Positions 20,770-35,447 of a stretch of 64,000 nucleotides of DNA are shown here, piece by piece. Under the pieces are notes generated by a model. That model worked only from the letters and a program-made list of their open reading frames with translations, was not told where the DNA came from and ran no database searches. This stretch comes from Cyanobacteriota bacterium (GTDB lineage Bacteria; Cyanobacteriota; Cyanobacteriia; PCC-6307; Cyanobiaceae): assembly GCA_039799245.1 (NCBI GenBank), contig JBDLTB010000015.1, positions 9,759 through 73,758 of the forward strand. Direction: 5' to 3'. Numbering within the stretch: the first letter of the stretch is position 1; every line of letters starts with the position of its first letter. A program made the translations under genes and the position numbers.

Positions 20770-21459
20770 TCAACTGCGAAACAGGCGCGAATACAAGCTG
20801 CCATGCTGCAGCTGGGCCAACCCCGCCCCCACGGCGCCACTCCAGAGCTGGCGCGGATCAGCCCCCACCAACTGCTCCGCCCGCCGCCGCAGCACTGGCG
20901 CCAGCTCCAGTTGCAAGCGTTGGCCAGTGGTGGCCCCCAGGGGCACGAGCCGCACCGCCGCACTCAACTGGTTGGCCAGCCAGCCATATAGATAAGCCTC
21001 CAACAATTCCAACTGGGGCAACTCCAGGCAGTGGCCAGCCCAGGCCCAGGCCGCCGGCCAGCCCAGGTCACAAACCCCGCCGGGCAGGGGCCAGCCCAGC
21101 TCCGCCAAGAGCTGCAGCAGCGAGCGGCCCATCTGGCGCTGTTGGGCCCGCAGTTCCGGCGCCTCCCGCTGGGCCAGCAACCAGCCATCCAGGTCGCGCA
21201 GCTGCGCTTCGCCGGTACCACCGGAATCCGCCTGCCAGGCCCCAAGCGCCAGACCCAGGGGCCCCAGAGCCGCCGCCTCCATCGCCACCGCCCCCCTCTC
21301 CAGTTCAGCTTGCAGCCAAGCCTTCAGGGGGCCAGGGCCAGCGATGCTGCCCTGTTGCACCAGCACCTCGAGCCCCTCCGAATAGCTGAAGGCCCCCACC
21401 GGCAGGGCCGGACTCACCAGTTGCAACAGATGCAGGCGCTGCAGCTGGGGGCCGCTCAC
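20770..21459 (-). CDS. ureF: urease accessory protein UreF
   Basis: LLQLVSPALPVGAFSYSEGLE N-terminal UreF motif. GTGA overlap with ureE. Confidence 0.85.
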   Translation of the reverse strand: MSGPQLQRLHLLQLVSPALPVGAFSYSEGLEVLVQQGSIAGPGPLKAWLQAELERGAVAMEAAALGPLGLALGAWQADSGGTGEAQLRDLDGWLLAQREAPELRAQQRQMGRSLLQLLAELGWPLPGGVCDLGWPAAWAWAGHCLELPQLELLEAYLYGWLANQLSAAVRLVPLGATTGQRLQLELAPVLRRRAEQLVGADPRQLWSGAVGAGLAQLQHGSLYSRLFRS

Positions 21460-21923
21460 GGGTGATGCCCCCCATAGGCCCCCGCCTCCGGCTGGAAGGG
21501 GGCCTCCAGGGTTTCAACCCCTAGGCCCCGATGGCGCAGCAGATCGGCCAGCACGCTGTCGGCCAGCAGGCGCAGCTCGCCGCAGTGCAACTCCAGGGCC
21601 ACATGGCGATTGCCCAGGTGATAAGCCGCCTGCAACAGCTCCAGGGGCTCCCCAGCGGTGACCCGCAGCAAGCTCTCCGGCGCCGCCTGCACCAGCACCA
21701 CAGGCAAGCCGTCTGCCATCGCCAGCCATTCCCCGGGCCGCAGGGCCGCCCCCCGGGGCAACTGCAACAGCAACGGCTGGCCGCAGGCGCTATGGCGCCG
21801 GCCCCGTAACACCGTGCGTTCGGCCGCCGTCAATGGCAGGCAGAGGCTGGGGCCAAGCTGAGGGGCTGGGGCCGCCAACCGCCGCTCGAGCACCAGTGGT
21901 GCCAACTTCCCATCCGCCATCAA
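21456..21923 (-). CDS. ureE: urease accessory protein UreE
   Basis: Position between ureF and the divergent ureD, UreE-like size, GNRH motif (AYHLGNRHVALE) and His-containing C-terminus. TTG at 21923 and ATG at 21920. Confidence 0.8.
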   Translation of the reverse strand: MMADGKLAPLVLERRLAAPAPQLGPSLCLPLTAAERTVLRGRRHSACGQPLLLQLPRGAALRPGEWLAMADGLPVVLVQAAPESLLRVTAGEPLELLQAAYHLGNRHVALELHCGELRLLADSVLADLLRHRGLGVETLEAPFQPEAGAYGGHHP

Positions 21924-21975
21924 CGCTTATCCCCCTTGCCCTGCCCCAGCCTCCTGGCCGAAGCCAAGGGAAAAG

Positions 21976-21989
21976 GTGATGGTTGCTAC
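21976..21989. promoter_or_regulatory. NtcA-like palindrome GTG-N8-TAC in the ureE/ureD divergent spacer
   Basis: gtgatggttgctac. No convincing -10 element at the canonical spacing in either direction. Confidence 0.25.
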
Positions 21990-22023
21990 CAAGTTTCAGG
22001 GGCCAGGGGAGAAGCATCCCCCC

Positions 22024-22887
22024 ATGGTCAATGCATCCCCCTGGCAGGGCAGGGCTGAACTGAGCTTTGCCCTAGGTTCCGCTGGCACCACTGGTTTCCA
22101 AGGGGGCAGCACGGCCCCCCTGCGGCTGCAGCGCAGTTTCTGCCGGGGCGATGGCCGCTGCGAGCTGCCATTGCTGCACACCGCCGGCGGCCTAGTGGGG
22201 GGCGATGAGCTCTGGGTGGAGGCAAAACTGGCGGCGGGTAGCCGTGCCCTAATTACCACCGTGGCGGCCCAGAAGGTGTATGGCACCAGGGGCCGTTCCC
22301 GCCAGCAACCCCAGGGCCGCTGGGCCCGCCAACAGCTGCACTTTCAGCTGGAAACAGAGGCAGACCTCGAATGGCTCCCCCAGGAAACCGTGGTGTTTAG
22401 CGGGGGGTTGCTGGAGCAACACTGCCGGGTGCAACTGGCGGCCGATGCCCACTGGCTCGGCGCTGAAGTGGTGCGGCTGGGACGCACGGCCAGCGGTGAA
22501 AGCCTTGGCTGCGGCCAATGGCGCAGCCACTTGGAAATCCAGAGGCAGGGCCAGTGGGAGCTGGTGGACCGGCTGGAACTGGGGGGCGAAGCCCTAACGG
22601 CGCCCCACGGCATGGACGGCCAGCCGGTGTTTGGCAGCCTCGTTTGGGCCAGCCCGGGGGCCGTGGCCGCCGAATTGCTGGAGCTCTGCCGCGCCGACAG
22701 CGCTGGCTTGCCCGGCAGCCTGGCCTGCGGCGCCCTCGAGCGGGGCTTGATCGCCCGTTACCGGGGGCCCTCCAGCCAGGCCGCCCGCTTCTGGTTCACC
22801 CGCATCTGGGCCCGGATCCGCCAGCAGCGGGGACTAGCGGCGGCGGAACTACCGCGGGTTTGGCCCTTCCAGGAGGCTCCCCTTTAA
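22024..22887 (+). CDS. ureD: urease accessory protein UreD (UreH)
   Basis: WQGRAELSF...PLRLQRSF...LLHTAGGLVGGD UreD pattern. ATG 22024 is preferred; the ORF opens at GTG 21976. Confidence 0.85.
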   Translation: MVNASPWQGRAELSFALGSAGTTGFQGGSTAPLRLQRSFCRGDGRCELPLLHTAGGLVGGDELWVEAKLAAGSRALITTVAAQKVYGTRGRSRQQPQGRWARQQLHFQLETEADLEWLPQETVVFSGGLLEQHCRVQLAADAHWLGAEVVRLGRTASGESLGCGQWRSHLEIQRQGQWELVDRLELGGEALTAPHGMDGQPVFGSLVWASPGAVAAELLELCRADSAGLPGSLACGALERGLIARYRGPSSQAARFWFTRIWARIRQQRGLAAAELPRVWPFQEAPL

Positions 22888-24332
22888 AGCGCCAGGGCAC
22901 GAATGGCCCGGCGGCGTACTTCGATCACCTCACCAATGTCCTGGGCAACGCGGGGCTGCACTTCAAGCAGATGGTGCAGGGTGTCAGCATCAATCAGCAA
23001 CACACTGAGATCCTCGGTTGCCAATACCATCGTATCGATACATTGCTCGGTAAGTAATGATGCATTCTCACCAAAGTACTCCCCGGCCGCAAGCACCCCA
23101 ATCGTAAACATTCGCCCCTCAGCATCTATCACATTCAAGCTTGCCCGGCCCTCCATAATCACAAATAAGCCAGGCAGACGCTCCCCTTGGCGCAATACCA
23201 ACTCCTGGCCGGCATAGCGCTGCTGTTCACATACAGCCAAGACAGATTCCAACTCAGCAGCGGGCAATGTTGCAAAGCAAGCCACCCGCTGCAACCCCTG
23301 GAGCTGCAAACGCCGCCGCTGTTCACCCGTGGGCCCAGGGGGACGGTGCGCCATCACCTGCTGGATTGGATAGGGCATCGTGAGCCCATGGCGCTTGGCG
23401 GCATACCAGATGCGCAGCTTAAAATCATCAAGCGCATCAAAGGCTTCTTCGATGCCATCTGAATAGAAACGAATCGAATAACTAATCGCCGAATCGCCAT
23501 ACTCATATAGAGACACATCGGGGCGGGGTCGCTCAAGTACGTCATTAATATTAGCCAAGAGATCTCGGATCACCTTAATCACCTTGTTGGGGGGATCATC
23601 GTAGGAGAACGAAAGTAACAGCCGTTCATTGTGCAGCCTGCGCGGCCTGCTGAGATTGGAAAATGTTTCTTTTGCCAATACAGAATTAGGCACCACCGTG
23701 AGGTCTGTAAAGCGGGTAACCAAGTGCACAGAGCGCCAGTTTATCTCCACCACCTTTCCAAATTTATCGCCAATACGAATCCAATCCCCCAGGCTAAATG
23801 GCCGTTCAGATAAAAGCGAAATCCCCGAAAAAATATTACCAAGACTGTCCTGCAGGGCTAGGCCCACCACCAGCGAACCCACCCCCAGGGCAGTGAGCAG
23901 GCCGCCAAGATTGGCGCCCCACACCGAAGACAATACAAAAGCAGATCCGATGCACACCAGCACGAAACGGCCCAGATCCCGCAATATCTGGGGGATTTTG
24001 GCTTGCCAGCCAGCACTGCCAGCCCGCTCAAACAGCAGCACATTCAGCAGCGTTAAGGCTGCATAGATCAAGGTGATCCAAAGGAAGGTTTCCGCCAGCC
24101 GCACAAAGATCGCGCCGGCCGGCCATTGCAACACCTGCCGCAGCAGCACAAAAGCCGCCGCCAGGGGCAGGCTCCCCTGACGCAAAATTGCCAAGGGTTG
24201 AGCCAGGGGTTGTTGACGCCGCTCCAGCCGCAGCTGCAGCTCCCCCAGCAGCAACATCAACAGGGGAAAGCCCAACACCAGGCCCAGGGTCCAGCCGAGG
24301 GCCCAGCCCTGGATCGCTACGCCAGTGGCCAT
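22884..24332 (-). CDS. MscS-family mechanosensitive channel with C-terminal CAP/cNMP-binding-like domain (bCNG-type architecture)
   Basis: MscS TM3/beta-domain core GVGSLVVGLALQDSLGNIFSGISLLSERPFSLGDWIRIGDKFGKVVEINWRSVHL, followed by a CNB-like beta-roll ...GEYFGENASLL.... Low GC. Confidence 0.85.
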   Translation of the reverse strand: MATGVAIQGWALGWTLGLVLGFPLLMLLLGELQLRLERRQQPLAQPLAILRQGSLPLAAAFVLLRQVLQWPAGAIFVRLAETFLWITLIYAALTLLNVLLFERAGSAGWQAKIPQILRDLGRFVLVCIGSAFVLSSVWGANLGGLLTALGVGSLVVGLALQDSLGNIFSGISLLSERPFSLGDWIRIGDKFGKVVEINWRSVHLVTRFTDLTVVPNSVLAKETFSNLSRPRRLHNERLLLSFSYDDPPNKVIKVIRDLLANINDVLERPRPDVSLYEYGDSAISYSIRFYSDGIEEAFDALDDFKLRIWYAAKRHGLTMPYPIQQVMAHRPPGPTGEQRRRLQLQGLQRVACFATLPAAELESVLAVCEQQRYAGQELVLRQGERLPGLFVIMEGRASLNVIDAEGRMFTIGVLAAGEYFGENASLLTEQCIDTMVLATEDLSVLLIDADTLHHLLEVQPRVAQDIGEVIEVRRRAIRALAL

Positions 24333-24334
24333 GG

Positions 24335-26425
24335 CTAACTCACCCGCCAGATCGGCAGTTCAGCACTGCCTTGCTCAGCAACTAGCTCGAAACTGTAGAG
24401 GCCCTGGAGGGCCTCATAAACCGACTGGCTTACATGGATCTGATTCTGACCGGGGGATTCATGGATCTGCTTGGCGATGTTGATTGTTTCCCCCCAAACC
24501 TCGTAATTAAATCTGGTTTTACCCACCACCCCCGCCGAAACTGGCCCACTGTGGATGCCAATATCCAGGCCAAGATCAAGGCCCTCCTTGCGGTTGAAAC
24601 GCCGAATAATATTGATCATCGCCAGGGCAAAATCCACCATCCGCTTGGCGTGGTCTACCCGCGGTATCGACAAACCGCAAACAGCAACATAAATAGAACC
24701 CATACTGCGAATCTTCTCAACGCTAAAGCGCTCAGCCGCCTCATCAAAGGCATCATTCAATTGGTTCAATAGTTGATATGCATGCTCCTCCGAAAGACTG
24801 GCCGAAAGCGAATCAACTCCATCAACATTCACATAAAGCACTGTCACATTTGGAAAACTATCGGAAATATCCTGCTCACCACTCTTGAGCCGCTCCGCCG
24901 CCCCAGGGGGCAAGATCGTGAGCAGCAAGCGATCGTTCTCCTGCATGTGGGCTTGAATTGCCTGTTCTTTTCCATGCAAGGCCTTGGCCATGGCATTGAA
25001 GGATTGGGTGAGCTCCCCAAACTCATCCTGGGAGACCACCGGAATCTGCACCTCACTATTGCCGCGTTCAATCTCGTGGGTTCCGGCAATCAAGCGGCGA
25101 ATCGGCGTAAGAAAAGTTTTAGCCACCGCCCCAGAAACCAGGGTGATCAAAGGCATCATGATCGCCGCGGTTATCAGCATGTTGCGGGTAAGCGTATGCA
25201 TACCACTAAATATTTCAGCCTGGTCAATCTCGACCACTAAAGCCCAGTCAAAATCACCTAACTTAATTGGAGAATAGGCTCCAAGTACAGGCACGCCCCG
25301 ATAGTCGTTATAGGAAGCCAAACCGGATTTGCCAGCCAAGCCCGCTAGGGCTCCCTTTGATTTGACCTGCTGGATAAGAATTGAAGACTGGGCGGATTTA
25401 ATCAGGCCAATCTGCTTAGTAGCCACCCCCTGGGCTTCGAGGGCCTTGTAATAGCCCTTGGGATCCTCGAAGAGGAAACGACTGGAGGAACGCATCCGCT
25501 GGTCTGGCCCCACCAGATAGGTTTCTCCTGACTCACCAAGGCCCACCTGCTGCCAGCGTTTGTCCACATTCATAATCTGATCAATGCGGTGGGAAGGCAC
25601 CTCAAGCACCAACACACCGATAAATTTATCTTTATCAAAAACCGTCGTACTTACAAAGGCAGAGGGCACTCCATAGCCAGGCTTATAGTGTTCAAAGTCT
25701 GTTATACCTACGAAATCTGGATCCCGCGATTGACGGGCCATCTCAAAGGCTTTAGCGAGGGAACTACCCGCAAAGGGACCATCGGCAATGTTGCCACCAA
25801 AATCAATCTTCTTTGCCACTGAATATAAAATATTGCCTTTAGCATCAATCAAATAAAGGTCTGGATAACCAAATTCCTCGGCAATCACCCTAAAGCGCTT
25901 ATGCACGGCCCCATGCAGCTCACTATATTCACTACCATCCCCAGCCTTTAGCAACTGAGCGCGATTTTTGGGGTAGGGATTTGCCACCGTATAGTGGTAA
26001 GTAAGATACTTATCCGCCGCAGAAATGGGCAAATAAGTGGCCAGCGCTGGATCGCCCTCAATATTCTTTTTTAATTTCGGCAGGAAGTCTTTGGCATAGA
26101 AATTCCTCAACTTCTCCGTCTGCTCGGCTGTGATTTGACTGCTGTTTAACCTATTGATTGCCGGTCCAAGGCTATTAATGGCATTCACAGCCATCTGCTG
26201 ATAGCCCAAGGTGAGGGCATGGGCCTTCAAGCCCTTGAAATAGCTCTCGATCGCCTGGGAACGGGAATTGCGCAGGCCGAGCAGCTGGGCATCGGCAGCA
26301 GCCATCAGGGCCTGGCGGCTACTGCTGTAGCTCACAAAACCAGTGAGCAGCAGGGTGAACAAACTCACCGCCAGCACCAGAGCCAGCAGCTTCGATTGGA
26401 TCCCCAGCTTGCTGAAAACAGTCAT
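24335..26425 (-). CDS. membrane sensor protein: extracytoplasmic Cache-like domain - HAMP - class III cyclase-homology domain
   Basis: TM1, an extracytoplasmic region of about 380 aa (GETYLVGPDQ, YNDYRGVPVLGAY...WALVVEIDQAE), TM2, HAMP (PIRRLIAGTHEIERGN...DEFGELTQSFNAMA), then the cyclase-homology domain (VTVLYVNVDG...GIHSGPVSAGVVG...YEVWGETINIA). ATG 26425 is preferred; the ORF opens at 26464. Confidence 0.85.
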   Translation of the reverse strand: MTVFSKLGIQSKLLALVLAVSLFTLLLTGFVSYSSSRQALMAAADAQLLGLRNSRSQAIESYFKGLKAHALTLGYQQMAVNAINSLGPAINRLNSSQITAEQTEKLRNFYAKDFLPKLKKNIEGDPALATYLPISAADKYLTYHYTVANPYPKNRAQLLKAGDGSEYSELHGAVHKRFRVIAEEFGYPDLYLIDAKGNILYSVAKKIDFGGNIADGPFAGSSLAKAFEMARQSRDPDFVGITDFEHYKPGYGVPSAFVSTTVFDKDKFIGVLVLEVPSHRIDQIMNVDKRWQQVGLGESGETYLVGPDQRMRSSSRFLFEDPKGYYKALEAQGVATKQIGLIKSAQSSILIQQVKSKGALAGLAGKSGLASYNDYRGVPVLGAYSPIKLGDFDWALVVEIDQAEIFSGMHTLTRNMLITAAIMMPLITLVSGAVAKTFLTPIRRLIAGTHEIERGNSEVQIPVVSQDEFGELTQSFNAMAKALHGKEQAIQAHMQENDRLLLTILPPGAAERLKSGEQDISDSFPNVTVLYVNVDGVDSLSASLSEEHAYQLLNQLNDAFDEAAERFSVEKIRSMGSIYVAVCGLSIPRVDHAKRMVDFALAMINIIRRFNRKEGLDLGLDIGIHSGPVSAGVVGKTRFNYEVWGETINIAKQIHESPGQNQIHVSQSVYEALQGLYSFELVAEQGSAELPIWRVS

Positions 26426-26504
26426 TGACGAAGGCTCAGCCGAGGGGCGAGGCAATCGGTGCATTCACGCAGGCAGAACCACGCTTCTCGGCAAGCGAGC
26501 TTAA

Positions 26505-26528
26505 CTGAACTGTTCAGCCCGAACGTTC
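26505..26528. promoter_or_regulatory. adjacent palindromes CTGAAC-T-GTTCAG and GAACGTTC in the sensor/ureA divergent spacer
   Basis: Read directly. They are part of a cluster of eight GAAC/GTTC tetramers in 26476..26586. Confidence 0.35.
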
Positions 26529-26587
26529 CGCCTGAACCATCCGGCCCTAACCAGAGCTGGCAAAGTGCCTGTTCCCTGGACTGAACC

Positions 26588-26893
26588 ATGCACCTGTCCC
26601 CCCAGGAGAAAGACAAACTGCTGGTGGTGACCGCTGCCCTTCTGGCGGAGCGCCGCCTGCAGCGGGGCCTAAGGCTCAACCATCCGGAGGCGGTGGCCTG
26701 GCTCAGCTTCCAGATCCTGGAGGGGGCCCGCGATGGCCAAACCGTGGCCGCCCTCATGCAAGCGGGCAGCACCTGGCTGCGGCGCGACCAGGTGATGGAA
26801 GGGGTGCCGGAACTGATCCCAGAAGTTCAGATGGAAGCCACCTTCCCCGATGGCACCAAGCTCGTGACCCTGCACCAACCAATCCGATGCTGA
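26588..26893 (+). CDS. ureA: urease subunit gamma
   Basis: [37 protein letters not shown]... is a canonical UreA sequence. Confidence 0.95.
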
Positions 26894-27195
26894 TCCCAGG
26901 CGAACTATTCCCCGTAGCAGGCAGCATTGAGCTCAATGCTGGCCGCCCGGTAACCCAAATCACTGTGGCCAACAGTGGTGATCGCCCCGTGCAGGTGGGC
27001 TCCCATTTTCATTTCATGGAAGCCAACGCTGCCCTGCTCTTTGACCGGGAGGCCGCCCGGGGCCAGCGGCTAGACATCCCCGCCGGCACCGCCATCCGGT
27101 TTGAACCTGGCGACAGCCGCGAGGTGCAGCTGGTGCCCTTTGCCGGGGCCAGGCGGGTGGTGGGTTTCAACGGCCTAATCAACGGAGAGCTCTGA
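26887..27195 (+). CDS. ureB: urease subunit beta
   Basis: IPGE...[28 protein letters not shown] is a canonical UreB sequence. Confidence 0.95.
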
Positions 27196-28904
27196 TGCCT
27201 TACCAGATGGACCGTCGGGCCTACGCCGAAACCTATGGCCCCACCCGCGGCGATCGCCTGCGCCTGGCCGACACCGAGTTGATCCTGGAGGTGGAAAAAG
27301 ACTTCACCAGCTACGGCGATGAGGTGAAATTCGGCGGCGGCAAGGTGATCCGCGATGGCATGGGCCAAGGGCAAACATCCAGGGCCGCAGGGGCCGTAGA
27401 CACGGTGATCACCAATGCGCTGATCCTCGATTGGTGGGGGATTGTGAAGGCAGACATCGGCCTGCGCGATGGCCGCATCTGGGCCATCGGTAAGGCCGGC
27501 AACCCCGACATCAGCGACAACATCGACGTGCTGATTGGCCCTGGCACCGAGGTGATTGCCGGCGAAGGCCAGATCGTTACCGCCGGTGCCATCGACACCC
27601 ACATCCACTTCATCTGCCCCCAGCAGATCGAAACAGCCCTGGCCTCCGGCGTTACCACCATGCTCGGTGGCGGCACGGGCCCAGCCACTGGCAGCAATGC
27701 CACCACCTGCACCCCGGGGGCCTTCCACCTGGCCCGCATGTTGCAGGCCGCCGATGGCTTTCCGATCAACCTGGGCTTCTTCGGCAAGGGCAACGCCAGC
27801 AGCCCCGAGGCCCTAGCGGAACAGATCCGGGCCGGGGCCTGCGGGCTCAAGTTGCACGAGGACTGGGGCACCACCCCCGCCGCCATCGATTGCTGCCTAG
27901 GGGTAGCTGACCGCTTCGATGTCCAGGTGTGCATCCACACCGACACCCTCAATGAAGCCGGGTTTGTGGAAGACACGATCCGCGCCATTGCCGGGCGCAC
28001 CATCCACACCTTCCATACTGAGGGGGCCGGCGGCGGCCATGCCCCCGACATCATCAAGATCTGCGGGGAAGCGAATGTGCTGCCCAGTTCCACAAACCCC
28101 ACCCGCCCCTACACCCGCAACACCCTGGAGGAACACCTAGACATGTTGATGGTGTGCCATCACCTCGACGCGGGCATTCCCGAGGATGTGGCCTTTGCTG
28201 AATCACGCATTCGCCGCGAAACTATCGCCGCCGAAGACATCCTCCACGACCTCGGGGCCTTCAGCATCATCGCCAGTGATTCCCAGGCCATGGGTCGGGT
28301 GGGGGAAGTGATCACCCGCACCTTCCAAACGGCCCACAAAATGAAAGTGCAACGGGGAGCTTTGCCGGGGGACAGCAGCCGCAACGACAACCAGCGGATC
28401 AAGCGCTACGTGGCCAAATTCACGATCAATCCGGCTATTGCCCATGGCATCGACAGCCAGGTGGGCTCCGTGGAGGTGGGCAAGCTGGCCGACCTGGTGC
28501 TTTGGAAGCCGGGGTTCTTTGGGGTAAAGCCTGAATTGGTAATCAAGGGGGGCATGATCGCCTGGGCCCAGATGGGCGATGCCAATGCCTCGATTCCCAC
28601 CCCCGGCCCGGTGCACGGCCGACCGATGTTTGCTGGCTTTGGCGGCGCCACCGCCCCCAGCCGGCTCAGCTTCGTCTCCCAGGCGGCCCTAGACGCCGAC
28701 CTGCCCCGCCAGCTGGGGCTGCGGAGCCCCTGTGTGCCGGTGCAGAACACCCGCAGCATCGGCAAAACGGCGATGCGCAACAACAGCGCCATGCCAGCCA
28801 TGGAGGTGGATCCGGAAACCTATGAGGTGTATGCCGATGGCGAACTGCTCAGCTGTGAACCAGCCGAGGTGCTACCCATGGCCCAGCGCTACTTTCTGCT
28901 CTAA
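27195..28904 (+). CDS. ureC: urease subunit alpha
   Basis: [35 protein letters not shown] and MVCHHLD Ni-centre motifs. Confidence 0.97.
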
Positions 28905-29158: not shown

Positions 29159-30028
29159 ATGCCAAAATCAATCCATAAAAAAATCAAAGAAGACCCCTAC
29201 GAACCCTCGAACTTGCTGGAGGATCTAGCAGCAAATGATGACAAGCACTCAACAAAACTTGAGCGCAAAATATATGAAAAAGAATTAGCTAAATTACATA
29301 TAGAGCTGGTAAAAATGCAATATTGGGTTAAACATATTGGCTACCGCTTAATTGTTGTGTTTGAAGGCAGAGATGCGGCAGGCAAGGGGGGCACAATCAA
29401 GCGAATAACAGAACCCCTAAACCCCCGCGGTTGCCAAGTAATTGCCCTTGGCACCCCCTCAGACCACCAAAAAACCCAATGGTATTTTCAGCGCTACGTT
29501 GAACACTTTCCTTCGGCTGGTGAAATCATAATTTTCGATCGTAGTTGGTACAATCGAGCCGGCGTAGAGCGGGTGATGGGCTTCTGCAGCGAAGCCCAAA
29601 CCCAAGAGTTTCTCCACTCCTGCCCGGAATTTGAACGGATGCTTGTGCGGGCAGGCATTGTACTAATCAAATATTGGTTTTCCGTTAGCGATGAAGAACA
29701 GGAAATTCGCTTCCAATCACGCATCGACGACCCCACCCGCCGCTGGAAGCTAAGCCCCATGGACCTGGAATCAAGGCGCCGCTGGGTGGAATTTTCAAAG
29801 GCCAAAGATGAAATGTTTGCCCACACAAACATCCCAGAGGCCCCCTGGTTCACCGTGGCAGCCGACGACAAACGCCGGGCAAGGCTCAATTGCATTCATC
29901 ACCTACTAAGCAAAATTCCCTACGAAGACATGACCCCTGAAGCAATTAAGCTTCCCCCTCGCAAAAGCGGTGGTAAATACCAAAGGCCACCGATTAATGA
30001 GCAATTCTTTGTTCCTGAAATCTATTGA
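29159..30028 (+). CDS. ppk2: polyphosphate kinase 2 (single-domain PPK2)
   Basis: VVFEGRDAAGKGGTIKRI (Walker A), QWYFQRY and FDRSWYNRAGVERVMGF lid motif. Markedly low GC. Confidence 0.9.
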   Translation: MPKSIHKKIKEDPYEPSNLLEDLAANDDKHSTKLERKIYEKELAKLHIELVKMQYWVKHIGYRLIVVFEGRDAAGKGGTIKRITEPLNPRGCQVIALGTPSDHQKTQWYFQRYVEHFPSAGEIIIFDRSWYNRAGVERVMGFCSEAQTQEFLHSCPEFERMLVRAGIVLIKYWFSVSDEEQEIRFQSRIDDPTRRWKLSPMDLESRRRWVEFSKAKDEMFAHTNIPEAPWFTVAADDKRRARLNCIHHLLSKIPYEDMTPEAIKLPPRKSGGKYQRPPINEQFFVPEIY

Positions 30029-30152
30029 GGCTCAAATAAGTAGCAGAGGCAACAAAATTACTAGCTCCCAGGGCAAAGCGGGCATTTGGTAGCAATAGCA
30101 ACTCTATAAGGGCCCCCCAATTGCAGACCATTACCCCAGGAACGGGTTGCCC

Positions 30153-31592
30153 ATGTTTGAAAGCTATGCCCCAAACGGCGGTTTCGACGAATACATGAGT
30201 CCCACCCACACCCCCCGCCAGGCAATGGGGAACCTGATGGATCAGTTGGGGGCCCTGGGTCTTCCCCAGCTCAACCGCAACCACCAGGCCGCCGAAAAAC
30301 TCTTAAAGCGCCTAGGGGCCACCTTCCGGTTGAACAGTGGCTCCGAGGGGGCCAGCGAGCGGATTCTTCCCTTTGATCCCCTACCGCGCCTGATCGACCA
30401 TGACGATTGGCAGGTGCTGGAGGCGGGCCTGATCCAACGGCTCGAGGCCATTGATCTGTTCCTCGCCGATGTCTATGGCCCCCAACTCATCCTCAAGGAT
30501 GGGGTGATCCCCGCCGATGAGGTTTTCAGCAGCCATGGCTGGCGGCCGGAAATGGTGGGGGTGCTGCCCCCCCTGGGGCGTTGGTGTCAAATTTCAGGCC
30601 TAGATCTGATCCGCGATGGGGAAGGCACCTGGCGGGTGCTGGAAGACAACCTGCGCTGCCCCTCAGGGGTGGCCTACTTCCTGGAAAACCGCCGGGTGAT
30701 GAAGCAACTATTTGGGGGGCTGTTCAGCAGCCAACGGGTCACCCCCATCGATGACTACGCCTCCCAGTTGCTCCAAACCCTCCAGGACATGGCCCCCTGG
30801 AGTGGCAGCCCAAGGGTGGTGCTGCTAACCCCCGGGGTGCACAACAGCGCCTACTTCGAGCACAGCTACCTGGCGCGGCTGATGGGCATCCAGCTGGTGG
30901 AGGGCCAAGACCTGGTGTGCAGCGAAGGCAAGGTATGGATGCGCAGCACCACCGGCCTAGAGCGGGTCGATGTGATCTACCGCCGCATCGACGACGATTT
31001 CCTTGATCCCGAATGCTTCCGTGCCGACTCGATGTTGGGGGTGCGCGGCCTGATGGAGTGCTACCGCCAGGGCTCCATTGCCATTGCCAATGCCCCTGGC
31101 ACCGGCGTGGCCGACGACAAGCTGATTTATGCCTATGTGCCGGAAATGATCCGCTACTACCTACAACAGGAGCCGATCATTGAAAACGTCACCACCTACC
31201 TCTGCTCCCGCCCCAACGACCTCACCTACGTGCTGGAGCATCTGCCATCCCTGGTGGTGAAAGCGGTATCTGAGGCTGGCGGCTACGGGATGTTGATTGG
31301 CCCCCATGCCAGTGCCCAGGAATGTGCCGAGTTCCGCGAAAGGATCAAGGCTGATCCCCGCAATTACATCGCCCAACCAACCCTGCAGTTATCGACGGTG
31401 CCCTCCTTGAGCAATGGGGAGCTCTACCCCTGCCATGTGGACCTGCGGCCCTACATCCTGCGGGGTCGCCAGAGCTGGGTAACCCCCGGCGGTCTCACCC
31501 GGGTGGCACTCAAACGTGGTTCCCTGGTGGTGAACTCCTCCCAGGGCGGCGGTAGCAAAGACACCTGGGTGGTCTCATGCTCAGCCGTGTAG
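30153..31592 (+). CDS. circularly permuted ATP-grasp type 2 protein (COG2308, DUF404/DUF407)
   Basis: About 480 aa with the family-typical N-terminus (YDEY-like ...GFDEYMSP), VLEDNLRCPSGVAY, IANAPGTGVADDK and VVKAVSEAGGYGM motifs. Heads the COG2308-COG2307-COG1305 gene order. Confidence 0.85.
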   Translation: MFESYAPNGGFDEYMSPTHTPRQAMGNLMDQLGALGLPQLNRNHQAAEKLLKRLGATFRLNSGSEGASERILPFDPLPRLIDHDDWQVLEAGLIQRLEAIDLFLADVYGPQLILKDGVIPADEVFSSHGWRPEMVGVLPPLGRWCQISGLDLIRDGEGTWRVLEDNLRCPSGVAYFLENRRVMKQLFGGLFSSQRVTPIDDYASQLLQTLQDMAPWSGSPRVVLLTPGVHNSAYFEHSYLARLMGIQLVEGQDLVCSEGKVWMRSTTGLERVDVIYRRIDDDFLDPECFRADSMLGVRGLMECYRQGSIAIANAPGTGVADDKLIYAYVPEMIRYYLQQEPIIENVTTYLCSRPNDLTYVLEHLPSLVVKAVSEAGGYGMLIGPHASAQECAEFRERIKADPRNYIAQPTLQLSTVPSLSNGELYPCHVDLRPYILRGRQSWVTPGGLTRVALKRGSLVVNSSQGGGSKDTWVVSCSAV

Positions 31593-32539
31593 CCGAACAG
31601 CTGTACTGGATCTTCCGTTACGTGGAAAGGGCCGAAAATCTGGCGCGCTTCCTGGAGGTGAGCCAGTCCATGGCCCTAGACACCCCCATGGAAGGAAACG
31701 ATGTATGGCTGCCCCTGATTGATGTGTGCGCCGACCGCAGTCGTTTTGAGGAATTACATCCCGGGGGCGGCGCCAAGGAGGTGGGGGAATATCTATTGCG
31801 GGAGGCAGACAACCCCAATGCAATTCGCAATTGCCTAGCCATAGCCCGGGAAAATGCCCGCCAGATCCGCGAGGTGATTCCCAACGAATTTTTTGAAGAC
31901 CTCAATGCCCTTTACCTGGACCTGGAGGATGGCGAGCCCTTCTGGCAACTGCCAGAACAGGAACAACTCCAGCAGATCCGCAGCCGCTGCCAACAGCTCT
32001 ATGGCATCGCCGATTCCACCATGCGGCGGGATCTCAGCTGGCAATTTGCAAACCTAGGGCGGCTGATTGAACGGGCTGATAAAACCGCCAGAATTCTTGA
32101 TGTGAAGTACTTCTTGTTGCTGCCCAGCCTCGAAGATGTGGGGGGCGCCCTCGATGAACTCCAGTGGATCGCCCTGTTGCGTTGTGCCAGTGCCTATCAG
32201 GTGTTCCGCCAGCACACCCAACAACCGATCAGCCCCAGTGGGGTGGCTGCTTTCCTGCTACTGGACCCGGCCTTCCCCCGCTCGGTGCGCTACTGCCTCA
32301 ACGGCGTGGCAGAGGCCCTCAATGGCATCGACCAACGACCCCTAACGGAAGGGGCCGACGACCTGGCCCGCACCATGGGACTGCTCCAGGCCCACTGGAA
32401 CTACAGCCGGGTGGAAGAAGTGGTTAACCGGGGACTGCATGAGGTGATCGACACCCTGCAACAACAGTTAAACCAACTGCATCGTCTGATTGAAGAGCGA
32501 TACTTCATTAGTTCCCACGGTTCCATGGAAGCGATCTAG
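31577..32539 (+). CDS. alpha-E domain protein (COG2307, DUF403)
   Basis: Characteristic N-terminus MLSRVAEQLYWIFRYVERAENLARF. Overlaps the ATP-grasp gene by 16 nt. Confidence 0.8.
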   Translation: MLSRVAEQLYWIFRYVERAENLARFLEVSQSMALDTPMEGNDVWLPLIDVCADRSRFEELHPGGGAKEVGEYLLREADNPNAIRNCLAIARENARQIREVIPNEFFEDLNALYLDLEDGEPFWQLPEQEQLQQIRSRCQQLYGIADSTMRRDLSWQFANLGRLIERADKTARILDVKYFLLLPSLEDVGGALDELQWIALLRCASAYQVFRQHTQQPISPSGVAAFLLLDPAFPRSVRYCLNGVAEALNGIDQRPLTEGADDLARTMGLLQAHWNYSRVEEVVNRGLHEVIDTLQQQLNQLHRLIEERYFISSHGSMEAI

Positions 32540-32544
32540 GCGCC

Positions 32545-33414
32545 ATGCATGTTCGCCTGAGCCACCAGCTCACGTACTCCTACAGCAAACCGGTGCAACT
32601 AGGTCCGCACCGGCTGTGCCTAATGCCCCGGCCGTTGGGCTTCCAACGGCTGATCAGCCATCAACTGCACTTCACCCCGGAACCTTGCAACAAATTTCAA
32701 TTGATGGCGGCCGGCGGGGATCAGATTCTGCGCACCCGTTTCATCGGCAGCACCGACCGCTTTGAGATCCTTTCCATCTCCGAGCTAATCACTGAAACCC
32801 CTCCCCTGCTTGAACTTTGCCTAGAGGAACAGTCCCCCCGGCTCCCGTATCCAATCGGACGCCTAAATGGTGATCTGCTGAGCAATCTTCAGGGCTGGCT
32901 CCCCAACGGCCAGCACGACCCCGCCGCCGTGACCCTGGCCCAGGAGGCCCTAATCGGCAGCGACCACCATTGCCTCACCTTTCTGCAGCAACTGATGGAA
33001 ATGATCAAGGAAAGGGTTAGTTACACCAAACGCCACCAGGGGCCCCCCTGGCCCGCCGGCCGCACCCTGCGGGAACGGGTGGGCTCCTGCAGGGACCTGG
33101 CGGTATTGATGCTGGAGTGCTGCCGGTCCATTGGTCTACCCAGCCGTTTTGTGAGTGGTTACCACCTGGTGGAACCGGCCCCCAAGGCCTACGACCTCCA
33201 TGCCTGGACGGAGGTGTATCTGCCGGGGGCTGGCTGGCGCGGTTTTGACCCCAGCGGTGCTGGACCCGTGGATGAGCGTTACATCGCTGTGGCCAGTTCC
33301 TCAAATCCCGAACTCACCGCTGCTGTTAGTGGCAGCTTCAATGGGCCCCCTGGGGTGGAAAGCCGCCTGAGCTGGGACATCCGCGCCACGGAACTCAGCT
33401 TGATCACCCCATGA
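32545..33414 (+). CDS. transglutaminase-like cysteine peptidase family protein (Bact_transglu_N + core)
   Basis: N-terminal HQLTYSYSKPV...HRLCLMPR. Catalytic triad context GSCRDLAVLMLECCRSIGLPSRFVSGY / HAWTEVYLPGAGWRGFDPS. Confidence 0.85.
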   Translation: MHVRLSHQLTYSYSKPVQLGPHRLCLMPRPLGFQRLISHQLHFTPEPCNKFQLMAAGGDQILRTRFIGSTDRFEILSISELITETPPLLELCLEEQSPRLPYPIGRLNGDLLSNLQGWLPNGQHDPAAVTLAQEALIGSDHHCLTFLQQLMEMIKERVSYTKRHQGPPWPAGRTLRERVGSCRDLAVLMLECCRSIGLPSRFVSGYHLVEPAPKAYDLHAWTEVYLPGAGWRGFDPSGAGPVDERYIAVASSSNPELTAAVSGSFNGPPGVESRLSWDIRATELSLITP

Positions 33415-35447
33415 GCAGCTCCCCCCTGCCCGCCTGGATGACCACCGCGGCCAAGGAGGCCAGGGCCCGCTTCCAGGGGGCGGGCATGGCCCTCACCCTG
33501 GGGGGAGAACCCACCTACGTGCCCATCGATCCCCAGGGGCCGGAATGGACCGTGGCGGCCGATGGCCCCACAAAACTGCCCTTGGCCCGGGCCCTGGCCC
33601 GGGAACTGCAACGCACCAGCCTGCCCGGCAGCCTTTGTTTCTTCTGCCCCGGCAAGCACTACCCCGGCGAAACCAACCCCCGCTGGGCCCTGCGGCTGCT
33701 CTGCCAACGGGACCTCAGCCCCTTGGTGCCCTGGCCCGGGGCCGGCCCGCTAACTGAGCCGGCCCAAGGGCTGTTGAAAGCGATTGGGACGGCCTTGGGC
33801 CTGGGGCTGGAGCCAGTGGCACTCCAGGATCCCCTGGCGCCAGAACGGCAGGTGTGGGCTGTGCCGCTGTCCCACGATGGCTTCACTTGGGCCAGCTCCC
33901 CCTGGCCCCTGGAGGCGGCTGAACGGCTGTTGGTGGCCACGGAAGGGCCCCCGGGCTTGCGCTTGCCGCTTCAACAGCTGCCGGAGGGGGTGCCGCGCCA
34001 GGTGCTCACCCTTGATCAAACCAGCGAAGGCTGGGGCCTTTTTCTACCGCCCCTGGAACAGGACAGCTTTGAAGAACTGATCCGGGCGATTGCTGCCCTG
34101 CTGGCCAGCAAAGCGCTTACCGCCCCAAACCTAAGCGGGGTGGTGCCCTTTGACCTAGAGGCCCGCTGGACCGTGCTGGGCCTCGCCGCCGACCCGGGCG
34201 TGCTGGAGATAAATCTGCCGGTTTGTGCCACCTGGGAGAGCTATGCCCATTGGCTGTTGCAATTAGAGGCCGCCGCCGCCGAGGTGGGACTGCGCTCCTG
34301 GAAGCAAGACGCCGCCGGCAAAACCTGCGGCACCGGCGGTGGTAACCATCTGCTCTGGGGCGGACCGACCCTGGCGGAGAACCCCCTATTCCAGCGACCC
34401 AGCTGGCTGGTGGCGTTGCTACGCACCTGGCAGCACCACCCCAGCCTGTCCTATCTATTTGGCAGCGACCCGGTGGGTGCCGCCAGCCAGGCCCCCCGGG
34501 CGGATGCCATTGCCGGCGACCTGCTTGACCTGGAACTGGCGCTATCCAGCCTTGAACAACTACCAGAGGGGGACCATCGCCAGGCCATCGGCGAAACCAT
34601 GCGCCATCTCCAGGTGGATCGCAGCGGTAACTCCCACCGCAGTGAAATCAGTTTTGATAAATACTGGAACCCTGGCTCCATGGTGGGTTGCCAAGGCCTA
34701 TTGGAATTCAGAGCGCTAGAAACCCTGCCCCAGGCCCAATGGATGGCGGCCGTGGCCCTGCTCTGGAGTTGCCTGGGCGCCCAACTACTAGACCCCGAAC
34801 AAAGACCGACAAAACTGATGCCCCATGGCCAGCGGCTCCATGACCGCTACCTGCTGCCCACGGTGCTGTGGCAGGACCTGGAGGGGCTATTGCTGGAACT
34901 GGGGCTAAACGGCCTACGCCTCGACCCCGAGCTATACCACCGGATCTGGGCATGGCGCTTTCCCTTGTTGCTGCAATGGCAGGAGGGCAATTGTCGGCTG
35001 TGGATACGCCGGGCCCTGGAACCCTGGCCCCTGCTTTCCGACATGCCTGAACTGGGGGCCATCACCAGCCGCTTTGTGGACACCTCGATGGAACGGCTAG
35101 AAATCGGCTGCTCCGGCGGCTTCTTAGATCACTACCAACTGCGGCTCAATGGCCGCAGCCTGCCCTTGCAGCGGGGGGTGGTGATCCCTGAGGCGGCGGA
35201 AGCCCTAGGGGGCGTGCGCTACCGCCACAGTCACCTTTTTCCCTGCCTACATCCACAGTTGCCCGTGGATCTGCCCCTGCAACTGACCATCGAAAAGCGC
35301 AACGGCACCCCCGTGGCTTGCTTCGAGCGCCGGGCTGATCAGTCTGAGTTTGGGGTTGGCAGCAACGACCACTGGCCCCGACAAAATGATCAAGCCCTAA
35401 CCACCTGGCACCGGGATGACATTTGCGTGGACCTAAGGCTGAGCTAG
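33411..35447 (+). CDS. DUF2126 protein (predicted glutamine-synthetase-like amidoligase, usually fused to a transglutaminase)
   Basis: LTLGGEPTYVPID...PEW...GKHYPGETNPRWAL pattern of DUF2126. ATGA overlap with the preceding transglutaminase gene. Confidence 0.75.
   Translation: MSSSPLPAWMTTAAKEARARFQGAGMALTLGGEPTYVPIDPQGPEWTVAADGPTKLPLARALARELQRTSLPGSLCFFCPGKHYPGETNPRWALRLLCQRDLSPLVPWPGAGPLTEPAQGLLKAIGTALGLGLEPVALQDPLAPERQVWAVPLSHDGFTWASSPWPLEAAERLLVATEGPPGLRLPLQQLPEGVPRQVLTLDQTSEGWGLFLPPLEQDSFEELIRAIAALLASKALTAPNLSGVVPFDLEARWTVLGLAADPGVLEINLPVCATWESYAHWLLQLEAAAAEVGLRSWKQDAAGKTCGTGGGNHLLWGGPTLAENPLFQRPSWLVALLRTWQHHPSLSYLFGSDPVGAASQAPRADAIAGDLLDLELALSSLEQLPEGDHRQAIGETMRHLQVDRSGNSHRSEISFDKYWNPGSMVGCQGLLEFRALETLPQAQWMAAVALLWSCLGAQLLDPEQRPTKLMPHGQRLHDRYLLPTVLWQDLEGLLLELGLNGLRLDPELYHRIWAWRFPLLLQWQEGNCRLWIRRALEPWPLLSDMPELGAITSRFVDTSMERLEIGCSGGFLDHYQLRLNGRSLPLQRGVVIPEAAEALGGVRYRHSHLFPCLHPQLPVDLPLQLTIEKRNGTPVACFERRADQSEFGVGSNDHWPRQNDQALTTWHRDDICVDLRLS

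What the first reader, a model, noticed from the sequence alone, without database searches (positions are those of the whole stretch)
24467..24829. Cyclase-homology domain lacks both metal-binding Asp residues and the transition-state Arg
I aligned the C-terminal domain by hand to the class III cyclase consensus (residue numbers follow the 709-aa ORF from 26464).
- Consensus VTVLFaDIvGFT reads VTVLYVNVDGVD here, so the first metal Asp is Asn546 (codon 24827..24829).
- Consensus vKTIGDaymAv reads IRSMGSIYVAV, so the second metal Asp is Ser590 (24695..24697) and the substrate Lys position is Arg.
- Consensus VNlAsR reads INIAKQ: Asn662 is kept but the Arg is Gln666 (24467..24469).
A homodimeric class III cyclase needs all of these residues, so this protein is probably not a conventional adenylate or guanylate cyclase. 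It may be a pseudo-cyclase used as a signalling or dimerisation output, or it may use non-canonical chemistry.
Basis: seen in the sequence. Interest (0 to 1): 0.75.

Follow-up and report, generated by a model that had tools for sequence, protein, structure and literature searches.

The report
Pseudo-cyclase receptor paired with MscS channel
A membrane receptor of a freshwater Synechococcus has an adenylate-cyclase-like domain that has lost almost all its catalytic residues but is still tightly conserved, and its gene always sits next to an MscS-type ion channel gene whose cyclic-nucleotide-binding domain is also atypical, so the pair probably no longer signals through ordinary cAMP chemistry.

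Summary
The 709-aa ORF (24335..26464, minus strand) is a dCache–HAMP–cyclase-homology-domain (CHD) receptor. Profile and structure-based comparisons place Asn546 and Ser590 at the two metal-binding Asp positions and Gln666 at the transition-state Arg. Further changes are Lys→Arg586, Asp→Glu655, GFT→GVD and the loss of the β7–β8 Lys. Only Asn662 is kept.

The domain is not decaying. Its dN/dS is 0.055, it has a confident class III fold, and the cyclase transducer element is the most conserved segment.

The main new result is the context. The gene is translationally coupled to an MscS + cNMP-binding channel (bCNG type) whose phosphate-binding cassette has no Arg. This gene pair is conserved across at least six phyla, in every context look-up, in both directions. 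In fetched loci, 23 of 26 channel-linked CHDs are degenerate, each in its own way. All 58 unlinked CHDs are fully canonical.

Among the degenerate relatives the chemistry residues vary freely, but the purine-specifying pair is retained.

Best reading: a catalytically dead pseudo-cyclase output domain that works with the channel. This is a new variant of known kinds. Direct, messenger-free coupling is inferred, not shown.

The parts
24335..26464 (-). Receptor gene: TM1 - periplasmic dCache - TM2 - HAMP - CTE - degenerate cyclase homology domain. The ORF is 709 aa. Gene callers in relatives start at Met14 (26425), giving 696 aa.
   Evidence: ORF list. Pfam dCache_1/HAMP/Guanylate_cyc. P0001 is 696 aa.
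25193..26326 (-). Periplasmic sensor region (residues ~47-424), dCache_1-like. Ligand unknown.
   Evidence: Pfam PF02743, E 2.5e-9, 37.5 bits, below the gathering score of 45. No solved homologue by sequence. dN/dS 0.12.
24974..25126 (-). HAMP domain (residues 447-497).
   Evidence: Pfam PF00672, E 5.4e-14.
24872..24952 (-). Cyclase transducer element (residues 505-531, ...NDRLLLTILPPGAAERLKSG...), a helix-turn-helix that precedes the CHD.
   Evidence: Most conserved segment of the family (0.856). P519 is kept in 48/48 and L513 in 46/48 degenerate representatives. Helices 2-17 and 20-27 in the AF2 model. CTE concept: PMC5995499.
24377..24862 (-). Cyclase homology domain (residues 535-696): class III fold, catalytically degenerate.
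   Evidence: Pfam E 3.8e-38. Foldseek TM up to 0.84 to Rv1625c. dN/dS 0.055.
24827..24829 (-). Asn546 at the first metal-binding Asp position. The following GFT motif reads GVD, with Asp551 at the Thr.
24695..24697 (-). Ser590 at the second metal-binding Asp position. Arg586 (24707..24709) is at the substrate-specifying Lys position.
24467..24469 (-). Gln666 at the transition-state Arg position. Asn662 (24479..24481) is kept. Lys665 lies one residue before the missing Arg. Glu655 (24500..24502) is at the substrate Asp position.
24371..24373 (-). Gln698 at the first Lys of the beta7-beta8 'VKGKG' motif, which reads EQGSA here.
   Evidence: Alignment to unlinked canonical homologues. This loop is the low-pLDDT part of the model. 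The assignment to the phosphate-binding Lys of mammalian C2 is from memory.
22884..24332 (-). Partner gene: MscS-like channel with a C-terminal cNMP-binding domain (bCNG architecture), 482 aa. Its start lies 2 nt after the receptor's stop (TAG-CC-ATG).
   Evidence: Pfam MS_channel_2nd, MS_channel_3rd and cNMP_binding. Junction sequence.
23019..23072 (-). Phosphate-binding cassette of the cNMP-binding domain (G421-A438, GENASLLTEQCIDTMVLA). The position of the universal Arg is Cys431 or Ile432, followed by Asp433.
   Evidence: PKG/PKA/CAP alignments. None of 120 homologues has Arg at that column.
26465..26587 (.). Divergent intergenic region shared with ureA. It presumably holds the promoter of the pair and contains clustered CTGAAC/GTTCAG half-sites.
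   Evidence: No sigma-70-like promoter match in the correct orientation and no NtcA box.

Best explanation
The C-terminal domain is a pseudo-cyclase. It is a correctly folded, dimer-forming class III cyclase domain that can no longer carry out two-metal-ion catalysis. It is kept as the conformational output of a periplasmic dCache - HAMP - CTE receptor.

The receptor works together with the co-translated MscS-like channel, whose cNMP-binding domain has also lost the canonical cyclic-phosphate contact. The ancestral 'ligand -> cAMP -> channel' relay has therefore been rewired so that ordinary cAMP synthesis and binding are no longer needed. The most likely replacement is direct receptor-channel communication. 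The dead active-site pockets may still bind a purine ligand.

Shown:
- Loss of catalytic residues.
- Intact fold.
- Strong purifying selection.
- Conserved transducer element.
- Obligate gene linkage.
- An Arg-less phosphate-binding cassette in the channel.
- Recurrent erosion of catalytic residues confined to the linked family.

Inferred:
- Catalytic inactivity (my estimate ~0.85).
- Functional coupling to the channel (~0.8).
- Messenger-free direct coupling (~0.3).
For: (1) Catalytic positions. Six of seven are changed, with no carboxylate at either metal site (N546, S590). T551D places a negative charge where the triphosphate binds. The roles of these residues are as described for Rv1625c and mammalian AC. 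A C2 homodimer lacking the metal residues is inactive (PMC4174876).

(2) The domain is functional, not decaying.
- dN/dS against S. lacustris relatives is 0.055 for CTE+CHD, 0.12 for dCache and 0.065 for the cNMP-binding domain.
- The NSRENQ signature is unchanged in a 61%-identical orthologue with dS > 2.
- The AF2 model has pLDDT 83, and Foldseek gives probability 1.0 to class III cyclases.

(3) The signalling path is kept. The CTE is the most conserved segment (0.856, against 0.805 for the CHD and 0.737 for dCache). It stays near-invariant in 48 degenerate 50%-identity representatives.

(4) Linkage.
- The stop and start codons are 2 nt apart.
- The pair recurs with unrelated flanking genes in all five look-ups that started from the CHD and in all three that started from the channel.
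- It also recurs in about 19 GTDB genome loci from Cyanobacteria, Gammaproteobacteria, Planctomycetota, Verrucomicrobiota, Bdellovibrionota, Acidobacteriota and Actinomycetota.

(5) Association between linkage and degeneracy.
- 58 of 58 unlinked CHDs are D,D,K,D,N,R. 13 of the 15 unlinked full-length homologues have at least 2 kb of downstream flank.
- 23 of 26 linked CHDs are degenerate.
- Among 68 single-CHD 50%-identity representatives nearest the query, 48 are degenerate, each with a different signature.

(6) An NJ tree interleaves canonical and degenerate linked members, which implies at least 5 independent erosions.

(7) In the 48 degenerate representatives the metal Asp positions are kept in 16 and 5, Asn in 18 and Arg in 12. 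K/R586 is kept in 42 and D/E655 in 45. Chemistry is dispensable, but the base-recognition positions are not.

(8) The channel's phosphate-binding cassette has no Arg in the query or in any of 120 homologues. Trypanosome PKA-R shows that a cNMP-binding domain without this Arg does not use cAMP (PMC10959531).
Against: - There is no biochemical assay, so inactivity is inferred from residues.
- Asn662 is kept, and R586/E655 are conservative replacements.
- A basic residue (K665, or R in relatives) is conserved one position before the missing Arg and might partly substitute for it.
- I could not scan the rest of the genome, so a canonical partner CHD, another cyclase class, or a true cAMP receptor elsewhere is not excluded.
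- The Arg-less phosphate-binding cassette is also present where the linked CHD is fully canonical (L006, L032, L081), and in an unlinked Rhizobium plasmid homologue. It is therefore not a specific correlate of cyclase decay, and non-canonical cAMP binding remains possible.
- Many Cyanobium-clade channels have an Arg two residues upstream of the canonical position.
- Support at the base of the linked clade is weak (52%).
- No physical interaction between the receptor and the channel has been shown.
- K586/D655 might be conserved for dimer stability rather than ligand binding.
Confidence: 0.6

Rival explanations
1. The dead active-site pockets are themselves the sensor. The CHD dimer binds ATP or another purine without turning it over, so the protein integrates a cytoplasmic nucleotide signal with the periplasmic dCache signal, or signals inside-out, before acting on the channel. 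This is a specific sub-variant of the pseudo-cyclase reading.
For: The purine-specifying positions are retained (K/R586 in 42/48 and D/E655 in 45/48) while the metal and transition-state residues drift. The inactive mammalian C2 homodimer keeps two ligand-binding pseudo-sites (PMC4174876). Degenerate GGDEF/EAL receptors such as LapD work this way (my own knowledge).
Against: T551D and the loss of the beta7-beta8 Lys remove triphosphate contacts, so ATP binding would be weak. The K/D pair could be conserved for structural reasons. No binding data exist.
Confidence: 0.15
2. The CHD is a C2-like regulatory half that heterodimerises with a canonical CHD protein encoded elsewhere in the genome, together forming one active site, as in mammalian C1/C2 or sGC alpha/beta.
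For: The EKIRSMGSIYVAV and IGIHSGPVSAGVVG motifs closely resemble mammalian C2. No genome-wide scan was possible.
Against: A C2-like half must supply Lys, Asp, Asn, Arg and the beta7-beta8 Lys. Here the Arg and that Lys are lost, and in most relatives the Asn as well. Both sites of any heterodimer would therefore be crippled. The protein has its own complete sensor, TM, HAMP and CTE apparatus, which enforces homodimerisation. There is no second CHD in the 64-kb window or in any linked locus. The conserved partner is the channel, not another cyclase.
Confidence: 0.1
3. The domain is still an enzyme that uses non-canonical residues. It makes cAMP slowly, or makes a different nucleotide product that the Arg-less cNMP-binding domain of the channel recognises.
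For: Asn662 is kept, along with a basic residue at 665 and the purine-specifying pair. The cNMP-binding domain keeps its Gly-Glu ribose contact. Linked members with all six residues canonical (L081, L006, L032) may be real cyclases.
Against: There is no acidic residue at either metal position in the query, or in 13 of the 48 degenerate representatives. The chemistry positions differ in almost every lineage, which is the pattern of relaxed constraint rather than of a new conserved active site. No class III cyclase lacking both Asp residues is known to be active (my own knowledge).
Confidence: 0.1
4. The CHD is a decaying relic with no function of its own, or the substitutions are assembly errors.
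For: Many catalytic residues are lost. Position 546 varies (N/H/T/D) among the closest orthologues.
Against: dN/dS is 0.055, lower than in the sensor domain. The reading frame is intact in all relatives. The protein-level motifs are identical on 14 independent contigs. The fold prediction is confident. Glycines, the CTE and the WG motif are invariant in all degenerate representatives.
Confidence: 0.03

Closest known systems
Class IIIa receptor-type adenylate cyclases: Rv1625c/Cya of M. tuberculosis, HAMP-CHD cyclases, and the unlinked dCache-HAMP-CHD homologues of Reyranella, Enhydrobacter and Sinorhizobium
   Same: Same CHD fold (TM 0.84 to 5o5l) and the same CTE and HAMP. The Reyranella group has the same full architecture, at 33-35% identity over the whole length.
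   Different: Those proteins have all of D,D,K,D,N,R, plus GFT and VKGKG, and they are not followed by an MscS-cNMP-binding gene. The query has lost all of these except Asn.
C2 domain of mammalian membrane adenylate cyclases, and the inactive C2 homodimer
   Same: Ser at the second metal position within an almost identical motif (EKIKTIGSTYMA against EKIRSMGSIYVA). No metal-binding Asp. Forms a wreath-like dimer with pseudo-sites.
   Different: C2 keeps Lys, Asp, Asn, Arg and the beta7-beta8 Lys, and is completed by C1. Here those residues are lost too, and there is no C1-like partner gene.
[quoted passage not shown] 2010; Malcolm et al. 2012)
   Same: The downstream gene has exactly this architecture. 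bCNG channels are described as occurring mostly in cyanobacteria. Their physiological role and the part cyclic nucleotides play in gating are still unknown (PMC13591265).
   Different: The phosphate-binding cassette lacks the Arg. I found no description in the searchable literature of obligate linkage to a dCache-HAMP-CHD receptor or of that receptor's catalytic decay. The original bCNG papers are not held, so I could not check them.
Degenerate GGDEF/EAL receptors such as LapD, PelD and FimX (my own knowledge)
   Same: A nucleotide-cyclase-fold output domain that has lost catalysis but is kept, behind a periplasmic domain and HAMP, as a signalling or ligand-binding module.
   Different: A different superfamily branch (GGDEF, not CHD) and a different ligand (c-di-GMP). 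The partner is a protease, not a channel.
Trypanosomatid PKA regulatory subunit, a cNMP-binding domain that binds nucleosides
   Same: A cNMP-binding domain in which the cassette Arg is replaced, so cAMP does not bind (PMC10959531).
   Different: Specificity there depends on an Ala-to-Glu change in the Gly-Glu-x-Ala motif. That position is Ala or Ser in the query's family, so the same nucleoside pocket is not implied.

Membership tests
Class III nucleotidyl cyclase homology domain (Pfam PF00211) | Sequence match above the gathering score, and the class III fold | tested here: met
   131.3 bits against a cut-off of 21.9, E 3.8e-38. Foldseek probability 1.0, TM 0.75-0.84.
Catalytically competent class III adenylate/guanylate cyclase | Two metal-binding Asp residues (Rv1625c D256/D300; AC C1 D396/D440) | tested here: not met
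   Asn546 and Ser590. Residue roles as in PMC4174876.
Catalytically competent class III adenylate/guanylate cyclase | Transition-state Asn and Arg (Rv1625c N372/R376) | tested here: not met
   Asn662 is present, but the Arg is Gln666.
Catalytically competent class III adenylate/guanylate cyclase | Substrate-specifying pair: Lys/Asp for ATP, or Glu/Cys-type for GTP | tested here: inconclusive
   Arg586 and Glu655 are conservative replacements that fit neither canonical pair. They are conserved as K/R and D/E across the family.
Catalytically competent class III adenylate/guanylate cyclase | Triphosphate contacts: the GFT motif and the beta7-beta8 Lys | tested here: not met
   GVD (T551D) and EQGSA in place of VKGKG.
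Catalytically competent class III adenylate/guanylate cyclase | Measured cNMP synthesis | not testable with these tools
   Needs an enzyme assay of the purified cytoplasmic domain.
Pseudoenzyme (pseudo-cyclase) | Homologous fold, catalytic residues missing, and still under purifying selection | tested here: met
   fold; residues; dN/dS 0.055.
HAMP-CTE-coupled receptor cyclase architecture | Two TM helices, an extracytoplasmic sensor, HAMP, and a cyclase transducer element before the CHD | tested here: met
   HAMP E 5.4e-14. dCache_1 E 2.5e-9, but below the Pfam gathering score. CTE conserved. The TM helices were judged by eye from the sequence.
bCNG channel (downstream gene) | MscS pore and beta-domain plus a C-terminal cNMP-binding domain | tested here: met
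   PF00924, PF21082 and PF00027.
bCNG channel (downstream gene) | A cNMP-competent phosphate-binding cassette (Gly-Glu ... Arg-Ser/Thr) | tested here: not met
   Gly-Glu is present. The Arg is Cys431/Ile432 and Ser/Thr is Ile/Asp. 0 of 120 homologues have the Arg in register.
bCNG channel (downstream gene) | Gating or binding by cAMP/cGMP | not testable with these tools
   Needs binding assays and electrophysiology.

The most novel reading that the evidence does not exclude
dCache-HAMP-pseudo-cyclase receptors and bCNG-type MscS channels form a widespread two-protein, chemoreceptor-gated ion channel, present in at least six phyla. In this system the cyclase-fold domain controls the channel's cNMP-binding-like domain by direct contact, with no diffusible second messenger. 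A cAMP relay would thus have been short-circuited into a protein-protein switch, repeatedly and independently. This would also explain why cyclic nucleotides have never been convincingly tied to the physiology of bCNG channels.
Probability: 0.3. Interest if true: 0.8.

Novelty: new variant of a known kind. Interest (0 to 1): 0.62.

Why it matters
Degenerate cyclase domains are known mainly as one half of eukaryotic pseudo-heterodimers (C1/C2, sGC). A homodimeric bacterial receptor whose cyclase domain has lost both halves of the active site, yet is more strongly conserved than its own sensor, is a clear case of a pseudo-cyclase.

The family pattern gives a natural experiment in how a second-messenger relay is rewired:
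- Catalytic erosion occurs only where an MscS-cNMP-binding channel gene is attached.
- It has arisen at least five times independently.
- The transducer element and the base-recognition residues are preserved.

It also gives bCNG channels an obvious, testable upstream partner. A 2026 review still describes their role and gating ligand as unknown.

For annotation, hundreds of picocyanobacterial proteins labelled 'adenylate/guanylate cyclase' or 'class 3 adenylate cyclase' are probably not cyclases.

Tried and rejected
- Second CHD as a heterodimer partner. tblastn of the CHD against the window found only the gene itself, and no second CHD appears in any linked locus.
- Sensor ligand. A PDB sequence search with the periplasmic domain found nothing.
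- Regulation. No sigma-70-like promoter match in the correct orientation and no above-background terminator signal were found. There is no NtcA box (GTA-N8-TAC) anywhere in the window, so nitrogen control through NtcA is not supported despite the position inside the urease cluster.
- Trypanosome-type nucleoside pocket in the cNMP-binding domain. Rejected, because the key Ala-to-Glu change is absent.
- Arg-less cassette as a specific correlate of cyclase decay. Rejected. The cassette is also Arg-less where the linked CHD is canonical, and in an unlinked Rhizobium plasmid homologue.
- Literature. The original bCNG papers and the Anabaena CyaA paper are not held. I could not verify whether the cyclase linkage was noted there, or whether canonical family members correspond to the experimentally active CyaA. 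Searches for pseudo-cyclase or for a cyclase + MscS operon returned nothing relevant.
A receptor-channel complex could not be modelled because only monomers can be predicted.
Full report
**The observation**

The ORF 24335..26464 (minus strand, 709 aa) is real. Pfam finds dCache_1 (E 2.5e-9, below the gathering score), HAMP (E 5.4e-14) and Guanylate_cyc (E 3.8e-38, residues 535-696).

phmmer alignments to solved cyclases, with high posterior probabilities, give the following equivalences:
- Asn546 and Ser590 align to the two metal-binding Asp residues of the AC8/AC9 C1 domain.
- Arg586 aligns to the substrate Lys of C2.
- Glu655 aligns to the substrate Asp.
- Asn662 aligns to the transition-state Asn.
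- Gln666 aligns to the transition-state Arg.

The roles of these residues, and the inactivity of a C2 homodimer that lacks the metal residues, are as described for Rv1625c and mammalian AC in PMC4174876.

An AF2 model of residues 501-709 has pLDDT 83. Foldseek matches it to Rv1625c, rhodopsin-guanylyl cyclase, AC5 C1 and sGC with probability 1.0 and TM 0.75-0.84.

- The GFT triphosphate motif reads GVD.
- The substrate Asp is Glu.
- The β7-β8 'VKGKG' motif reads EQGSA.

Only Asn662 survives.

**It is not decay or error**

- The nearest database cluster (P0001, 96% identical, named Synechococcus lacustris, seen on 14 contigs) has the same N546, S590 and Q666.
- A 61%-identical orthologue (L088, dS > 2) has the same six-residue signature, NSRENQ.
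- Against three S. lacustris contigs, dN/dS is 0.055 for CTE+CHD, 0.12 for the dCache region, 0.05 for the MscS part of the neighbouring gene and 0.065 for its cNMP-binding domain.
- The segment between HAMP and the CHD is the cyclase transducer element (concept: PMC5995499). It is the most conserved part of the family, with a mean commonest-residue fraction of 0.856, against 0.805 for the CHD, 0.778 for HAMP and 0.737 for dCache. Its key residues persist in 48 degenerate 50%-identity representatives: P519 in 48/48, L513 in 46/48 and G529 in 46/48.

The domain is therefore still being driven by the receptor and still does something that selection sees.

**Context**

Two nucleotides after the stop codon (TAG-CC-ATG) begins a 482-aa gene (22884..24332, minus strand). 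It encodes an MscS β-domain, the MscS C-terminal domain and a cNMP-binding domain, which is the bCNG architecture. Its phosphate-binding cassette reads GENASLLTEQCIDTMVLA. Alignments to PKG, PKA and CAP put Cys431 or Ile432 at the universally conserved Arg, followed by Asp433. None of 120 homologues has Arg in that column, where the counts are S70/A42/T4/I3/G1. Many Cyanobium-clade members have an Arg two residues upstream, but the query has Gln there.

**The pair is a conserved module**

A GTDB scan with a family alignment returned 80 loci. The dCache-HAMP-CHD gene is directly followed, often with overlap, by an MscS-cNMP-binding gene in Cyanobacteria, a gammaproteobacterium, Planctomycetota, Chthoniobacterales, Bdellovibrionota, Terriglobales and Actinomycetota.

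Five context look-ups starting from CHD homologues and three starting from channel homologues all found the pair. The flanking genes were unrelated, and the intergenic distances were -4, -1, 2, 2, 3, 8, 10 and 98 nt.

**Linkage predicts degeneracy**

| Set | Result |
|---|---|
| CHDs with no MscS-cNMP-binding gene in the flanks | 58 of 58 canonical (D,D,K,D,N,R) |
| CHDs linked to a channel gene | 23 of 26 degenerate, 3 canonical (L006, L032, L081) |
| Single-CHD 50%-identity representatives nearest the query | 48 of 68 degenerate, all with different signatures |

The 58 unlinked CHDs include 14 full-length homologues from Reyranella, Enhydrobacter, Sinorhizobium and Bryobacteraceae. Of the 15 unlinked full-length homologues checked, 13 have at least 2 kb of downstream flank. 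These unlinked CHDs also keep intact GFT and VKGKG motifs.

The linked, degenerate signatures include DSKDNR, DSKDNQ, DSRDTA, NSRENQ, DDKDNA, DDKDND, DDKDKG, IDKDDE, EGRDTK, EGKDTK, EAKDNK, DQRDSR, ENKDNA and EEKETA. Even the three 'canonical' linked members lack VKGKG, and two of them have DLHRFT instead of DLxGFT.

An NJ tree of full-length proteins places the linked proteins in one clade, although base support is only 52%. Inside it, canonical and degenerate members are interleaved with 64-100% support. This implies at least five independent erosions, and a stepwise path (DSKDNR, then ..., then NSRENQ) on the query's lineage.

**What is kept**

In the 48 degenerate representatives:

| Position | Retained in (of 48) |
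|---|---|
| First metal Asp | 16 |
| Second metal Asp | 5 |
| Transition-state Asn | 18 |
| Transition-state Arg | 12 |
| Lys or Arg at 586 | 42 |
| Asp or Glu at 655 | 45 |

Residues needed for chemistry are free to vary. The two that read the purine base are not. This fits a ligand-binding or purely conformational pseudoenzyme, though a structural role for that pair cannot be excluded.

**Mechanism, with shown and inferred steps**

- Shown: a periplasmic sensor, HAMP and CTE remain coupled to a well-folded CHD that lacks both metal ligands. The gene is translationally coupled to, and co-inherited with, a channel whose cNMP-binding domain lacks the cyclic-phosphate Arg.
- Inferred: the CHD cannot make cAMP or cGMP (my estimate 0.85). 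The receptor and the channel act in one pathway (0.8). The coupling is direct rather than through a diffusible nucleotide (0.3).

The rivals are a purine-sensing dead site, a C2-like subunit for a distant partner, residual or novel catalysis, and decay. They are weighed in the rival explanations section. Decay is contradicted by the selection data. The heterodimer idea fails because the C2-type residues are also missing.

**Known relatives and novelty**

- The CHD is class IIIa-like. Its closest structures are Rv1625c and the mammalian C1/C2 domains, and it resembles an even more degenerate C2.
- The partner has the bCNG architecture. A 2026 review states that the physiological role of bCNG channels, and the part cyclic nucleotides play in their gating, are unknown and that no structure exists (PMC13591265).
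- A cNMP-binding domain without the cassette Arg that ignores cAMP is documented in trypanosome PKA (PMC10959531). The residue that defines that pocket is not present here, however.
- I found no paper describing the receptor-channel linkage or this family of pseudo-cyclases. The original bCNG papers are not in the library, so prior mention cannot be ruled out.

I rate this a new variant of known kinds: a pseudoenzyme form of a class III receptor cyclase, in a fixed partnership with a bCNG-type channel.

**Caveats**

- There are no biochemical data.
- The genome outside the window was not searched for other cyclases or cAMP receptors.
- The Arg-less cassette is also found with canonical linked CHDs and in an unlinked Rhizobium plasmid homologue, so it predates the catalytic erosion and is broader than it.
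- Lys665, one residue before the missing Arg, is conserved as K/R/H in many members and might have a residual role.
- The counts of linked and unlinked loci are not phylogenetically independent.

Noticed in passing
window 22884..26464, flanked by 20770..22887 (ureF, ureE, ureD) and 26588..28904 (ureA, ureB, ureC): The receptor-channel pair sits inside the urease gene cluster, between ureD and ureA. It has clearly lower GC3 (0.57 and 0.62) than the ure genes (0.72-0.83), which suggests a horizontally acquired two-gene island. In other genomes the pair has entirely different neighbours.
   Followed up: partly
window 26505..26589 (intergenic region between the receptor gene and ureA): There is a cluster of CTGAAC/GTTCAG half-sites. 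It includes a near-perfect palindrome, CTGAAC-T-GTTCAG, at 26505..26517, a 13-nt inverted repeat at 26512..26537, and CTGAACCAT repeated at 26532 and 26581. This may be an operator in the shared divergent promoter region. No NtcA box occurs anywhere in the window.
   Followed up: partly
window 26425 versus 26464: The ORF begins at an ATG at 26464 (709 aa), but gene callers in close relatives start at the Met14 ATG (26425, 696 aa).
   Followed up: partly
window 22884..22887: The channel gene and the convergent ureD gene (21976..22887, plus strand) overlap by 4 nt at their 3' ends. No convincing intrinsic terminator lies between them.
   Followed up: no
window 29159..30028: A PPK2 (polyphosphate kinase 2) gene has very low GC (0.48, GC3 0.50) compared with the window mean of 0.62. 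It is another compositionally foreign gene next to the urease cluster, and it is followed by a CP_ATPgrasp / Alpha-E / transglutaminase / DUF2126 cluster (30147..35447, by synteny with L085).
   Followed up: no
L083 13848..22024 (Cyanobium-clade relative): In this relative the pair lies in a defence/toxin-antitoxin island. The island contains PIN/PhdYeFM and RES/Xre modules, a reverse transcriptase, a Cap4 nuclease, an MmeI-type restriction enzyme and an SNF2 helicase. This is consistent with the pair travelling in variable genomic islands.
   Followed up: no
L093 4776..6296 (Rhizobium leguminosarum plasmid pR132502): Rhizobium and Sinorhizobium plasmids carry a distant MscS-cNMP-binding homologue (~30% identity, 345 plasmid records). 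It has no adjacent cyclase gene, and its cassette (GESGLLIGVGEAASLRA) also lacks the Arg. Arg-less cNMP-binding domains may therefore be common in bCNG-type channels generally.
   Followed up: partly
L086 15874..16890 and L087 10443..11468 (S. lacustris relatives): Next to the urease accessory genes, some S. lacustris strains carry a stand-alone 338-341-aa dCache_1 protein beside an SBP_bac_1 solute-binding protein. The window and L085 have a TauE gene and an ABC transporter at that place instead. This indicates strain-level variation in sensor content around the urease locus.
   Followed up: no
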